Shown here: positions 1 through 56,140 of the stretch, piece after piece
Layout: the number at the start of each line of letters is the position of its first letter
How positions within the stretch are numbered: position 1 is the stretch's first letter
NCBI RefSeq assembly: GCF_003334305.1
Contig: NZ_QOWS01000024.1
Length of the DNA: 64,000 bases
Direction: 5' to 3' (one strand)
DNA from: Escherichia coli
GTDB lineage: Bacteria; Pseudomonadota; Gammaproteobacteria; Enterobacterales; Enterobacteriaceae
Program-made: the position numbers and the translations under genes
Notes under the pieces: model-generated
What the model was told of the DNA's origin: nothing
Database searches by the model: none
What the model saw: the letters and a program-made list of their open reading frames with translations, nothing else

Positions 1-76
1 GGGTGATTAGCTCAGCTGGGAGAGCACCTCCCTTACAAGGAGGGGGTCGGCGGTTCGATCCCGTCATCACCCACCA
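1..76 (+). tRNA. tRNA-Val (anticodon UAC)
   Basis: 76-nt sequence GGGTGATTAGCTCAGCTGGGAGAGCACCTCCCTTACAAGGAGGGGGTCGGCGGTTCGATCCCGTCATCACCCACCA; anticodon loop CTTACAA; CCA end; matches E. coli tRNA-Val1 from memory. Confidence 0.9.
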
Positions 77-78
77 CC

Positions 79-154
79 GGGTCGTTAGCTCAGTTGGTAG
101 AGCAGTTGACTTTTAATCAATTGGTCGCAGGTTCGAATCCTGCACGACCCACCA
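79..154 (+). tRNA. tRNA-Lys (anticodon UUU)
   Basis: 76-nt sequence with anticodon loop CTTTTAA, T-arm GGTTCGAATCC, CCA end; 2-nt spacer from tRNA-Val as in the lys/val tRNA array. Confidence 0.9.
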
Positions 155-160
155 ATGTAA

Positions 161-187
161 AAAAGCGCCCTAAAGGCGCTTTTTTGC
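161..187 (+). terminator. rho-independent terminator after tRNA-Lys
   Basis: Hairpin AGCGCC-CTAAA-GGCGCT followed by a T-tract. Confidence 0.6.
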
Positions 188-293
188 TATCTGCGATACT
201 CAAAGATTCGAACCTGCAGCAGGTTTGAGTTGAGCGCAGCGAAACAACGGAGCCGCTCGCGGCGACGGCCCGAAGGGCGAGCGAAGCGAGTCA

Positions 294-346
294 TCCTGCA
301 CGACCCACCAATGTAAAAAAGCGCCCTAAAGGCGCTTTTTTGCTAT
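294..346 (+). repeat. direct repeat: second copy of tRNA-Lys 3' end plus terminator (copy of about 138..190)
   Basis: TCCTGCACGACCCACCAATGTAAAAAAGCGCCCTAAAGGCGCTTTTTTGCTAT occurs twice, about 156 bp apart; the second copy lacks the 5' part of a tRNA. Confidence 0.7.
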
Positions 347-13524: not shown

Positions 13525-13556
13525 CGTTATATTGTCGCCTACATAACGTTACATTA
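13525..13556 (+). promoter_or_regulatory. ModE operator in modABC promoter
   Basis: CGTTATATTGTCGCCTACATAACGTTACATTAAG matches the known ModE-binding sequence (CGTTATATT ... TACAT repeats), just upstream of modA. Confidence 0.6.
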
Positions 13557-35186: not shown

Positions 35187-35394
35187 TTAACCTGCCAATA
35201 TTGAGGATACAAACTATTTTCTTCTACCTCTAAAGGACGATGCACGCTATGCCTCCCTGATGATGTATATCAAAGTAAAACCGCCATTTTCCCTTATTCT
35301 GTAGCGAAATAGCACGATCATGACGCTATATACATGATTACATAGCGAAAGTGTGGATGGTAAAAATCTCATTTACACGCTAGTATCGGCATAA

Positions 35395-35515
35395 CCACTA
35401 AACACTCTAGCCTCTGCACCTGGGTCAACTGATACGGTGCTTTGGCCGTGACAATGCTCGTAAAGATTGCCACCAGGGCGAAGGAAGAAATGACTTCGCC
35501 TCCCGTATCTGGAAA
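35395..35515 (+). promoter_or_regulatory. molybdenum cofactor (Moco) riboswitch in moaA leader
   Basis: Structured leader immediately upstream of moaA containing a CCUCCC element and GGAAAGG RBS; the E. coli moaA 5' UTR is known to carry the Moco RNA motif; boundaries approximate. Confidence 0.5.
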
Positions 35516-35522
35516 GGTGTAC

Positions 35523-36512
35523 ATGGCTTCACAACTGACTGATGCATTTGCGCGTAAGTTTTACTACTTGCGCCTGTCGATTACCGATGTGTGTAACTTT
35601 CGTTGCACCTACTGCCTGCCGGATGGCTACAAACCGAGCGGCGTCACCAATAAAGGCTTTCTTACCGTCGATGAAATTCGCCGGGTTACGCGCGCCTTCG
35701 CCAGTCTGGGCACCGAAAAAGTGCGCCTGACAGGCGGTGAGCCGTCTTTACGCCGCGACTTTACCGATATCATCGCCGCTGTGCGGGAAAACGACGCTAT
35801 CCGCCAGATTGCGGTCACCACCAATGGTTACCGTCTGGAACGCGATGTGGCGAACTGGCGCGATGCGGGACTTACTGGCATTAACGTCAGTGTCGACAGT
35901 CTGGACGCCCGCCAGTTTCACGCTATTACCGGGCAGGATAAATTCAACCAGGTCATGGCGGGGATTGATGCTGCATTTGAGGCCGGTTTTGAGAAGGTCA
36001 AAGTCAATACCGTGCTGATGCGTGATGTTAATCATCACCAGCTCGACACCTTTCTGAACTGGATCCAGCATCGCCCTATCCAGCTGCGTTTCATCGAACT
36101 GATGGAAACGGGCGAGGGCAGCGAGCTCTTCCGTAAGCATCACATCTCTGGTCAGGTTCTGCGTGACGAGCTACTGCGTCGCGGCTGGATCCACCAATTA
36201 CGTCAACGCAGCGACGGTCCCGCGCAAGTCTTTTGCCATCCAGATTACGCCGGAGAGATTGGCCTTATCATGCCGTATGAAAAAGACTTCTGCGCCACTT
36301 GCAACCGCCTGCGCGTTTCCTCCATTGGTAAACTCCATCTCTGCCTGTTTGGTGAAGGCGGCGTTAACCTGCGCGATCTGCTGGAAGACGATACCCAGCA
36401 ACAGGCGCTGGAAGCGCGTATTTCAGCGGCGCTGCGGGAGAAGAAACAGACCCATTTCCTGCATCAAAACAACACCGGTATTACGCAAAACTTATCGTAC
36501 ATTGGCGGCTAA
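35523..36512 (+). CDS. moaA: GTP 3',8-cyclase (radical SAM)
   Basis: ORF track 35442..36512; start trimmed to [31 protein letters not shown] (CxxxCxxC), 329 aa. Confidence 0.93.
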
Positions 36513-50767: not shown

Positions 50768-50866
<99 letters not shown>

Positions 50867-56029: not shown

Positions 56030-56140
56030 TAAACGCCTGATCCGTCCAACGGTTCGGATTTTGTAGGCCTGATAAGACGCGGTAGCGTCGCATCAGGCAT
56101 CTGTTGCCGGATGCGGCGTAAACGCCTTATCCGTCCTACG
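56030..56140. repeat. BIME/REP array
   Basis: Three REP-like palindromes (GCCTGATAAGACGCGG..CATCAGGC; GCCGGATGCGGCGTAAACGCCTTATCCG). Confidence 0.7.

What the first reader, a model, noticed from the sequence alone, without database searches (positions are those of the whole stretch)
35230..35522. Moco riboswitch leader upstream of moaA, divergent from ybhK
The 396-bp region between ybhK and moaA carries the structured moaA leader. The track's 35442 ORF start would place a coding region inside this leader, so I trimmed moaA to 35523. The shared divergent region also means ybhK expression could be affected by the molybdenum and anaerobic regulators that act on the moa promoter.
Basis: partly seen in the sequence, partly recalled or inferred. 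Interest (0 to 1): 0.25.

Follow-up and report, generated by a model that had tools for sequence, protein, structure and literature searches.

The report
Known E. coli moaA Moco riboswitch

Summary
Confirmed, and already known. The window is E. coli chromosome. The 396-bp ybhK–moaA intergenic region (35127..35522) is 100% identical to K-12 MG1655.

The Rfam Moco model RF01055 matches 35391..35535 (+) over its full length: 103.6 bits against a gathering score of 36, E = 1e-24. RefSeq annotates a "molybdenum cofactor riboswitch" at exactly that span.

I tested the fold independently on 87 homologues from many phyla. P1 to P4 covary strongly: 89.7% of cells pair, against 64% in shuffles and 37–45% with slid partners.

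The 3' strand of P1 plus P5 cover the Shine-Dalgarno sequence (35511..35519), and there is no intrinsic terminator. This fits the published mechanism, a translational OFF switch.

The suggestion that ybhK shares ModE/FNR control has no support. ybhK has its own sigma-54 promoter (35182..35198, minus strand), and FNR ChIP-seq authors assign the peak to moaA.

Interest is low.

The parts
35391..35535 (+). Moco riboswitch aptamer plus expression platform (RF01055), full-length match
   Evidence: cmscan 103.6 bits, E = 1.1e-24. PGAP 'molybdenum cofactor riboswitch' feature at the identical span in RefSeq E. coli. 100% identical to MG1655.
35401..35407 (+). P1 5' strand (AACACUC). Outer P1 pairs at 35393, 35394 and 35396 pair with 35529, 35528 and 35526.
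   Evidence: Rfam consensus structure mapped onto the sequence. P1 pairs covary in 87 homologues.
35516..35521 (+). P1 3' strand (GGUGUA): the 3' half of the Shine-Dalgarno sequence, ending just upstream of the AUG
   Evidence: Regulski 2008 states that the RBS lies within P1.
35410..35446 (+). P2 hairpin with the tetraloop-receptor bulge. In E. coli it has three consecutive non-canonical pairs (35413-35415 with 35441-35443) and a deviant receptor, CCUGGG/UACGG.
   Evidence: Covariation at 10 of 11 lower P2 pairs.
35448..35473 (+). P3 hairpin, the hallmark of the Moco-type as opposed to the Tuco-type
   Evidence: All 5 pairs show compensatory changes. Published M1/M2 disruption and restoration mutants lie in this stem.
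35476..35501 (+). P4 hairpin capped by a GAAA tetraloop (35487..35490), with tandem G.A/A.G below the loop
   Evidence: 7 of 11 pairs have double-sided changes.
35502..35512 (+). P5 mini-hairpin (CC...GG) in the conserved core CCUCCC-N6-GGAAAGG
   Evidence: It is invariant in my alignment only because the search pattern fixed it.
35511..35519 (+). Shine-Dalgarno region GGAAAGGUG, fully engaged in P5, the junction and P1 in the aptamer fold
   Evidence: Regulski 2008.
35483..35485 (+). GGA motif 1 (upper P4). This and 35511..35513 are the only two GGA motifs on the RNA strand within the aptamer, so they are the likely CsrA sites.
   Evidence: converted from L002 coordinates. The literature reports two CsrA sites within the aptamer. 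Assigning them to these motifs is my inference.
35511..35513 (+). GGA motif 2, within the Shine-Dalgarno sequence and the P5 3' strand; likely the second CsrA site
   Evidence: inference.
35392..35393 (+). S1 transcription start (ModE-dependent promoter), approximate position
   Evidence: Regulski 2008 gives 131 nt from S1 to the start codon. The Adams 2021 cloning primer starts at AACCAC = 35393. A TAGTAT -10 lies at 35381..35386 and is conserved in 4 genera.
35324..35347 (+). ModE operator CGCTATATACATGATTACATAGCG, centred about -57 from S1
   Evidence: Inverted repeat. The pattern matches with no mismatch only here and at the modA operator 13525..13548 in the 64 kb. Half-sites are conserved in relatives. 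ModE activation of S1 is published.
35305..35306 (+). S2 transcription start (FNR-dependent promoter), approximate position
   Evidence: Regulski 2008 places S2 at -87 relative to S1. The position is computed from that, not measured here.
35260..35273 (+). FNR box ATGATGTATATCAA, centred about -40 from S2 (class II position)
   Evidence: The same 14-mer is listed with a ChIP-seq peak in the Myers 2013 supplement (816004 in the older MG1655 coordinates, U00096.2, = window 35260). ChIP-chip peak in Grainger 2007. Conserved in 4 genera.
35523..36512 (+). moaA CDS (GTP 3',8-cyclase, 329 aa), first gene of moaABCDE
35531..35531 (+). Abundant RNA 3' end, 8 nt into moaA, at the 3' edge of the aptamer. 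The authors did not call it Rho-dependent.
   Evidence: Adams 2021 Term-seq supplement: 817052 (+), flagged 'riboswitch'. A Rho read-through region lies at 817336 = window 35815.
34218..35126 (-). ybhK (yvcK) CDS, the divergent neighbour
35182..35198 (-). Sigma-54 promoter of ybhK (TTGGCAGGTTAATTGCT)
   Evidence: Bonocora 2015 ChIP-seq peak OS05; its motif centre converts to window 35190.

Best explanation
The region is the regulatory leader of the E. coli moaABCDE (molybdopterin synthesis) operon.

Two weak, activator-dependent promoters feed it. S2 (about 35305) is driven by FNR bound at 35260..35273. S1 (about 35392) is driven by molybdate-ModE bound at 35324..35347.

Both transcripts carry the Moco riboswitch (35391..35535), a five-stem aptamer (P1 to P5). 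When Moco or a close molybdopterin derivative is abundant, the aptamer fold is stabilised. P1 and P5 then hold the Shine-Dalgarno sequence (35511..35519) and bracket the AUG (35523). Ribosomes cannot initiate, so moaA translation is switched OFF. This is feedback repression by the end product.

Untranslated message is then probably exposed to Rho-dependent termination inside moaA. CsrA, probably binding at the two GGA motifs (35483, 35511), counteracts the closed fold and activates translation.

What was shown here:
- family membership;
- the full structure map;
- covariation of P1 to P4;
- the SD lying inside P1 and P5;
- absence of a terminator;
- the operator sequences and their conservation.

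What is shown in the literature on this identical sequence:
- Moco-dependent repression that needs P3 pairing;
- FNR and ModE dependence of the promoters;
- FNR occupancy in vivo;
- CsrA activation;
- a Rho effect on expression.

What is inferred:
- direct binding of Moco to the RNA, which has never been demonstrated;
- the exact identity of the ligand;
- the assignment of the CsrA sites to the two GGA motifs.
For: - Rfam RF01055 match at 103.6 bits, E = 1e-24, full length.
- PGAP riboswitch annotation at the same coordinates, moaA start at 35523.
- 100% identity to MG1655, so the K-12 experiments apply.
- Present in 5425 of 5426 complete E. coli genomes.
- Structure map: 34 of 41 consensus pairs are canonical in E. 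coli, and the P1 3' strand is the SD.
- Covariation in 87 homologues: 89.7% of cells paired against 64.0% in shuffles (0 of 500 shuffles reach it) and 37-45% with slid partners. Covariation score 0.514 against 0.155. Compensatory changes occur in P1, P2, P3 and P4.
- No intrinsic terminator and no consensus sigma-70 promoter in the leader. This fits translational control and activator-dependent promoters.
- ModE pattern specificity within the window.
- FNR box identical to the published ChIP-seq motif.
- Conservation of both boxes and of the S1 -10 in E. albertii, Citrobacter and Enterobacter.
- Literature: Regulski 2008 (PMC2408646): threefold Moco-dependent repression, P3 M1/M2 mutants, RBS in P1, S1/S2 promoters. 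CsrA review (PMC7652899). Rho and 3' ends (PMC7815308).
Against: - Direct Moco-RNA binding has never been shown, and the regulating metabolite is still unidentified (PMC2408646; PMC10845959).
- Single-sequence thermodynamics does not favour the aptamer fold in E. coli. The consensus structure scores -32.4 kcal/mol against an MFE of -42.0, with a z-score of only -1.5.
- In silico the SD pairs with the P2 5' strand rather than with P1.
- Published in-line probing of the ligand-free RNA disagreed with the P2 model.
- The tetraloop receptor in E. coli deviates from the canonical 11-nt motif.
- My alignment was fitted to the tested structure, which inflates the percentage paired. The slid-partner control addresses this only in part.
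Confidence: 0.93

Rival explanations
1. The conserved leader is a binding site for an unidentified Moco-sensing protein, or senses Moco indirectly. It would then not be a true riboswitch.
For: No direct ligand binding has been shown, because Moco is too labile. The regulatory metabolite was still unidentified in 2024. At least one protein, CsrA, does bind the aptamer.
Against: The five-stem architecture with a tetraloop and receptor is deeply conserved and covaries across many phyla. It occurs with both SD-sequestering and terminator platforms. Both are typical of ligand-sensing aptamers. No such protein has been found in 25 years.
Confidence: 0.05
2. The primary control step is premature Rho-dependent transcription termination rather than translation initiation.
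For: Expression of a moaA 5'UTR+ORF fusion rises more than twofold in a rho R66S mutant, and a bicyclomycin read-through region lies at window ~35815.
Against: The reporter that established Moco control was a translational fusion driven by a constitutive promoter, and the SD lies inside P1. CsrA changes translation without changing mRNA level. The strong 3' end at 35531 was scored as not Rho-dependent. Rho action is most simply a consequence of blocked translation.
Confidence: 0.12
3. The TTG at 35442 is the real moaA start, so 35442..35522 codes for an N-terminal extension and is not leader RNA.
For: It is the longest ORF in frame.
Against: RefSeq and PGAP start moaA at 35523. The stretch is covered by P2 to P5 of a 103-bit riboswitch hit. 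A 10-nt indel in Enterobacter P3 destroys the frame while keeping the RNA pairing. A good SD (GGAAAGGUG) sits just upstream of the 35523 AUG.
Confidence: 0.01
4. The shared intergenic region makes ybhK a co-regulated target of ModE and/or FNR.
For: The FNR and ModE sites lie about 95 and 165 bp upstream of the ybhK sigma-54 start. FNR occupies the region in vivo.
Against: ybhK is served by a sigma-54 promoter. By established knowledge, sigma-54 promoters need an AAA+ enhancer-binding protein, not FNR- or ModE-type activators. The FNR ChIP-seq authors assign the site to moaA. No ybhK expression change is reported in the literature I could search. Two natural strains carry IS1 between the ybhK promoter and the moa operators. 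The sigma-54 element itself is not conserved in Citrobacter or Enterobacter, whereas the FNR and ModE boxes are.
Confidence: 0.08

Closest known systems
E. coli K-12 moaA Moco riboswitch (Rfam RF01055; Weinberg 2007, Regulski 2008)
   Same: It is the same element. The sequence is 100% identical across the whole intergenic region, the coordinates match the RefSeq riboswitch feature, and it has the same P1-P5 architecture with the RBS in P1.
   Different: Nothing differs.
Tuco-type (P3-less) variants of the Moco motif
   Same: They share the P1, P2, P4 and P5 core and the conserved junction CCUCCC...GGAAAGG. 35 of the 87 homologues I aligned lack P3.
   Different: The window's element has P3 (35448..35473). 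It therefore belongs to the Moco-responsive class, and tungsten cofactor does not repress it.
SD-sequestering translational riboswitches of E. coli (thiM TPP, btuB AdoCbl)
   Same: These are OFF switches in which the ligand-stabilised fold masks the Shine-Dalgarno sequence, with secondary Rho or decay effects (own knowledge; for Rho).
   Different: Here the SD is part of the aptamer's own P1 and P5 rather than of a separate expression platform. The ligand has never been shown to bind in vitro.
CsrA-controlled mRNA leaders
   Same: Two GGA motifs, one of them in the SD, as in classic CsrA targets.
   Different: CsrA activates here instead of repressing, and it acts on a riboswitch aptamer.

Membership tests
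Moco RNA motif / Moco riboswitch (RF01055) | Scores above the curated gathering threshold of the family covariance model over its full length | tested here: met
   103.6 bits against GA 36, E = 1.1e-24, model positions 1-135 of 135.
Moco RNA motif / Moco riboswitch (RF01055) | Five base-paired elements P1-P5 around a conserved multistem junction, supported by covariation | tested here: met
   34 of 41 consensus pairs are canonical in the window. In 87 homologues, 89.7% of cells pair against 64% in shuffles and 37-45% with slid partners, and 33 of 41 pairs show compensatory change. P5 and the base of P4 are uninformative because my search pattern fixed them. RNAalifold alone recovers only P2, P4 and a P5-like hairpin.
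Moco RNA motif / Moco riboswitch (RF01055) | GNRA (GAAA) tetraloop on P4 and its receptor in the P2 bulge | tested here: inconclusive
   The GAAA loop is present at 35487..35490. The receptor is CCUGGG/UACGG instead of the usual CCUAAR/YAUGG. Only 3 of 87 homologues share it: E. coli, E. albertii and Citrobacter. Whether it still docks cannot be told from sequence.
Moco RNA motif / Moco riboswitch (RF01055) | P3 stem present (Moco-sensing class as opposed to the Tuco class) | tested here: met
   P3 is at 35448-35452 / 35469-35473, with 4 of 5 pairs canonical. All five P3 pairs covary.
Moco RNA motif / Moco riboswitch (RF01055) | Located in the 5' UTR of a Moco biosynthesis, molybdate transport or molybdoenzyme gene | tested here: met
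   It lies immediately upstream of moaA in moaABC(DE) and overlaps its start.
Moco RNA motif / Moco riboswitch (RF01055) | Recognisable expression platform (RBS inside P1, or an intrinsic terminator) | tested here: met
   The SD GGAAAGGUG (35511..35519) is paired in P5 and P1, and the AUG is bracketed by the outer P1 pairs. No terminator is found in the leader.
Moco RNA motif / Moco riboswitch (RF01055) | Moco-dependent repression in vivo that requires the conserved structure | not testable with these tools
   Shown experimentally on the identical K-12 sequence: threefold repression, with P3 M1 disruption and M2 restoration (Regulski 2008).
Moco RNA motif / Moco riboswitch (RF01055) | Direct, selective binding of the ligand by the RNA (the strict definition of a riboswitch) | not testable with these tools
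   Also never demonstrated in the literature, because Moco is too labile. The effector was still unidentified in 2024.
ModE operator | Inverted repeat CGnTATAT-N8-ACATAnCG as at modA | tested here: met
   35324..35347 matches with no mismatch. The only other zero-mismatch site in the 64 kb is 13525..13548, 20 nt upstream of modA. The consensus was recalled from memory and validated by that internal control. ModE dependence of S1 is published.
FNR class II activation site | TTGAT-N4-ATCAA near -41.5 of the promoter, occupied by FNR | tested here: met
   ATGATGTATATCAA at 35260..35273 has 1 mismatch. Six such sites occur in the window against 2.3 expected, so the sequence alone is weak evidence. 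The same motif is listed under a ChIP-seq peak. Its centre is about -40 from S2 as computed from Regulski's numbering.

The most novel reading that the evidence does not exclude
In Escherichia and Citrobacter, the ligand-free moaA leader may rest in an alternative fold rather than as an open aptamer. In that fold the 5' strand of P2 (UGCACCU, 35415..35421) pairs with the SD and P1 3' strand (AGGUGUA, 35515..35521).

The SD would then be masked in both states. CsrA, rather than mere absence of Moco, would be what opens it, giving a three-state switch with protein-assisted ON.

Support is limited to:
- in-silico ensembles, with p of about 0.9 in E. coli, E. albertii and Citrobacter;
- this clade's weak P2, with three non-canonical pairs, and its deviant tetraloop receptor;
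- the published mismatch between in-line probing and the P2 model;
- the published dependence on CsrA.

Against it: Enterobacter and 66 other homologues fold straight into the canonical P1 in silico, so there is no comparative support.
Probability: 0.15. Interest if true: 0.3.

Novelty: already known. Interest (0 to 1): 0.08.

Why it matters
The locus matters biologically. It is the feedback point that matches molybdopterin synthesis to demand, oxygen status and molybdate supply. It is also one of the few widespread riboswitch classes whose ligand binding has never been shown directly and which, as far as I could find, has no solved structure.

This finding adds nothing to that open question. 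The element is in the Rfam family, is annotated automatically in RefSeq, and was dissected experimentally on this exact sequence. Its practical value is as a correct annotation: moaA starts at 35523, and the riboswitch spans 35391..35535.

Tried and rejected
- Single-sequence folding does not recover the aptamer. The MFE is -42.0 kcal/mol with a z-score of -1.5, and the consensus structure scores -32.4. I rejected it as a test of the structure and used the covariance model and covariation instead.
- The consensus sigma-70 promoter scan found nothing in 35050..35600. This is uninformative for activator-dependent promoters, so S1 and S2 were placed from the literature.
- RNAalifold on the 87-sequence alignment recovered only P2, P4 and a P5-like hairpin. 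P1 and P3 needed the explicit pair count.
- I tested whether the in-silico alternative helix (P2 5' strand with the SD) is a conserved feature. It is not. It forms 7 of 7 pairs only in Escherichia and Citrobacter, dominates the ensemble in 3 of 69 homologues, and is absent in Enterobacter.
- Anderson 2000 (PMC94831) and Patterson-Fortin 2013 (PMC3710303) are not held. The exact S1/S2 coordinates, ModE footprints and CsrA footprints are therefore second-hand or inferred.
- Literature searches linking ybhK to ModE or FNR regulation found nothing specific.
- A CueR-box search put its best match on the riboswitch core itself. I treat this as coincidental resemblance; the consensus was recalled from memory.

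Full report
OBSERVATION. A gathering-threshold scan of the whole 64-kb window against Rfam 15 gives one Moco hit. RF01055 matches 35391..35535 on the + strand at 103.6 bits (gathering score 36), E = 1.1e-24, over model positions 1-135 of 135. The longest ORF does start at TTG 35442, and the in-frame ATG is at 35523. The minus-strand ORF for ybhK runs to a TTG at 35186, but RefSeq starts the gene at 35126.

IDENTITY OF THE LOCUS. The 701 bases around the site occur in 5425 of 5426 complete E. coli genomes, mostly at 99% identity or more. The intergenic region plus the first 18 nt of moaA is 100% identical to K-12 MG1655, NC_000913.3 816648..817061. In PGAP-annotated RefSeq genomes a feature "molybdenum cofactor riboswitch" sits at exactly the Rfam span, and moaA starts at the position equal to window 35523. 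The published K-12 experiments therefore apply to this sequence without qualification.

ANATOMY OF THE RNA. I mapped the Rfam consensus structure onto the sequence.
- P1 is 35401-35407 paired with 35516-35521. Three outer pairs (35393, 35394, 35396 with 35529, 35528, 35526) enclose the AUG.
- P2 is 35410-35426 with 35431-35446.
- P3 is 35448-35452 with 35469-35473.
- P4 is 35476-35486 with 35491-35501, capped by GAAA (35487-35490).
- P5 is 35502-35503 with 35511-35512.
- 34 of the 41 consensus pairs are canonical in E. coli.

The Shine-Dalgarno stretch GGAAAGGUG (35511..35519) is wholly taken up by P5, the junction and the P1 3' strand. No intrinsic terminator is present in the leader. The expression platform is therefore of the SD-sequestering type, as Regulski et al. 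proposed. The RNA strand of the aptamer holds exactly two GGA motifs, at 35483-35485 and 35511-35513. These fit the two CsrA sites reported within the aptamer, but that assignment is my inference.

INDEPENDENT TEST OF THE STRUCTURE. A plain DNA pattern fixing only the GAAA loop, the 3' end of P4 and the P5 core (GAAA-N8-CCTCCC-N6-GGAAAGG) was scanned over the species-dereplicated genome collection. It returned 120 loci from many phyla. A covariance model built from the E. coli sequence with the Rfam structure found 87 matches in the window plus 99 of those loci.

On that alignment 89.7% of pair cells are standard pairs. The figure is 64.0% after shuffling the partners (0 of 500 shuffles reach the observed value) and 37-45% when the partners are slid by 1-3 columns. 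The covariation score is 0.514 against 0.155. 33 of 41 pairs show changes on both sides, spread over P1, P2, P3 and P4.

There are three caveats. The alignment is fitted to the structure being tested. P5 and the two basal P4 pairs were fixed by the search pattern. RNAalifold on its own recovers only P2, P4 and a P5-like hairpin. Single-sequence thermodynamics is not supportive either: the z-score is -1.5, and the consensus fold scores -32.4 kcal/mol against an MFE of -42.0.

Regulski 2008, citing Anderson 2000, places a ModE-dependent start S1 131 nt upstream of the start codon and an FNR-dependent start S2 at -87. That puts S1 near 35392-35393 and S2 near 35305-35306. The Adams 2021 cloning primer begins at 35393.

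A near-perfect palindrome, CGCTATATACATGATTACATAGCG, lies at 35324..35347. The pattern CGnTATAT-N8-ACATAnCG has only one other zero-mismatch site in the window, 13525..13548. That site is 20 nt upstream of modA, so it is the classic ModE operator.

ATGATGTATATCAA at 35260..35273 is one mismatch from the FNR consensus. The same 14-mer is listed under an FNR ChIP-seq peak by Myers 2013. After conversion from the older MG1655 coordinates (U00096.2), the position matches to the base. Grainger 2007 also found a ChIP-chip peak in this intergenic region.

Both boxes, the S2 -10 region and the S1 -10 (TAGTAT, 35381..35386) are conserved in E. albertii, a Citrobacter and an Enterobacter. The same alignment shows a 10-nt indel in the Enterobacter P3 loop. 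It would shift the frame of the 35442 ORF, which is further evidence that 35442..35522 is non-coding.

MECHANISM, SHOWN VERSUS INFERRED. The literature shows the following on this sequence.
- A translational fusion driven by a constitutive promoter is repressed about threefold when Moco synthesis is on. Repression is lost when P3 is disrupted and regained when pairing is restored. It needs molybdate transport and the late biosynthetic genes, and it does not respond to tungsten cofactor.
- CsrA binds two sites in the aptamer and activates translation without changing the mRNA level.
- A moaA 5'UTR+ORF fusion rises in a rho mutant. Term-seq finds a strong 3' end at 817052 (window 35531, the 3' edge of the aptamer), which was scored as not Rho-dependent. 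A bicyclomycin read-through region lies at 817336, window 35815.

Two steps are inferred: that Moco itself binds the RNA, and that this stabilises P1. Direct binding has never been measured, and the effector was still unidentified in 2024.

THE ybhK SIDE. A sigma-54 promoter motif, TTGGCAGGTTAATTGCT, lies on the minus strand at 35182..35198. It is the motif under sigma-54 ChIP-seq peak OS05 of Bonocora 2015. A weak FliA ChIP motif lies on the minus strand at 35382..35409, antisense to the S1 start and the riboswitch 5' end, but ybhK expression did not change in a fliA mutant. Myers 2013 assign the FNR peak to moaA. I found no report that ybhK responds to ModE or FNR.

By established knowledge, sigma-54 promoters need AAA+ enhancer-binding proteins, so FNR or ModE could at most act architecturally. 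The sigma-54 element is not conserved: the -24 GG is lost in Citrobacter and the region is deleted in Enterobacter, whereas the moa operators are kept. In two E. coli strains an IS1 sits at 35203..35211, between the ybhK promoter and the moa operators.

PECULIARITIES OF THE E. COLI COPY. The P2 stem has three consecutive non-canonical pairs. The tetraloop receptor reads CCUGGG/UACGG, a version seen in only 3 of 87 homologues. In the computed ensemble of the free leader, the SD and P1 3' strand (35515..35521) pair with the P2 5' strand (35415..35421) at p of about 0.9, and with P1 at only 0.04. This holds for E. coli, E. albertii and Citrobacter only. In 55 of the 69 homologues tested, and in Enterobacter, the canonical P1 dominates. 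It may explain why in-line probing of the ligand-free E. coli RNA disagreed with the P2 model and why CsrA is needed. It has no comparative support, so I rate it a low-probability side hypothesis.

COMPARISON AND VERDICT. The element is not merely like the Moco riboswitch. It is the type example from E. coli K-12. It meets every sequence-testable defining feature except a canonical tetraloop receptor, which is inconclusive. The two functional criteria cannot be tested with these tools. Of those, in-vivo Moco-dependent control is shown in the literature, and direct ligand binding is not. Novelty: already known. Interest: low.

Noticed in passing
window 35203..35211 (insertion point); locus L124: In E. 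coli strains L73 and PK5074 a 768-bp IS1 with a 9-bp target duplication (GAGGATACA) is inserted in the ybhK-moaA intergenic region. It lies between the ybhK sigma-54 promoter and the FNR box, and leaves the moa operators and the riboswitch intact.
   Followed up: partly
window 35182..35198 (-): Sigma-54 promoter motif TTGGCAGGTTAATTGCT about 45-55 nt upstream of ybhK. It matches a published sigma-54 ChIP-seq peak. The -24 GG is lost in Citrobacter sp. FP75 and the segment is deleted in an Enterobacter MAG.
   Followed up: partly
window 35382..35409 (-): FliA (sigma-28)-type motif TAGAGTGTTTAGTGGTTATGCCGATACT, antisense to the S1 -10/start and the first bases of the riboswitch. The published ChIP signal is weak and a fliA mutant shows no change in ybhK expression. 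Its conservation is probably owed to the S1 promoter on the other strand.
   Followed up: partly
window 13525..13548 (+): Canonical ModE operator CGTTATATTGTCGCCTACATAACG, 20 nt upstream of modA. The modE gene itself also lies in this window, so the regulator and two of its operators share the 64 kb.
   Followed up: partly
window 35499..35517 (+): The best match in the 4-kb locus to a CueR-type inverted repeat (CCTTCC-N7-GGAAGG, consensus recalled from memory) is the riboswitch core CCTCCCGTATCTGGAAAGG. This may underlie the CueR site predicted near moaA in the literature, or it may be coincidence.
   Followed up: no
window 35531 (+): Published Term-seq data show an abundant RNA 3' end 8 nt into moaA, at the 3' edge of the aptamer. 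This implies that a stable riboswitch fragment of about 140 nt accumulates in cells.
   Followed up: partly
window 35413..35443 and 35415..35421 / 35515..35521: The E. coli, E. albertii and Citrobacter aptamers have a weak P2 (U.U, C.U, U.U) and a deviant tetraloop receptor (CCUGGG/UACGG). In silico they prefer an alternative helix between the P2 5' strand and the Shine-Dalgarno sequence. Other homologues do not.
   Followed up: yes
window 1..310, 34085..34126 (-), 50789..50831 (-), 56066..56136 (-): Other Rfam hits in the window: two tRNAs (1-73, 79-151); a marginal RtT match (185-310, 46.7 bits against GA 45); two ES036/CssrF matches, one of them in the uvrB-ybhK convergent spacer; and one naRNA4/CssrE match. 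The last three may be REP-type repeats.
   Followed up: no
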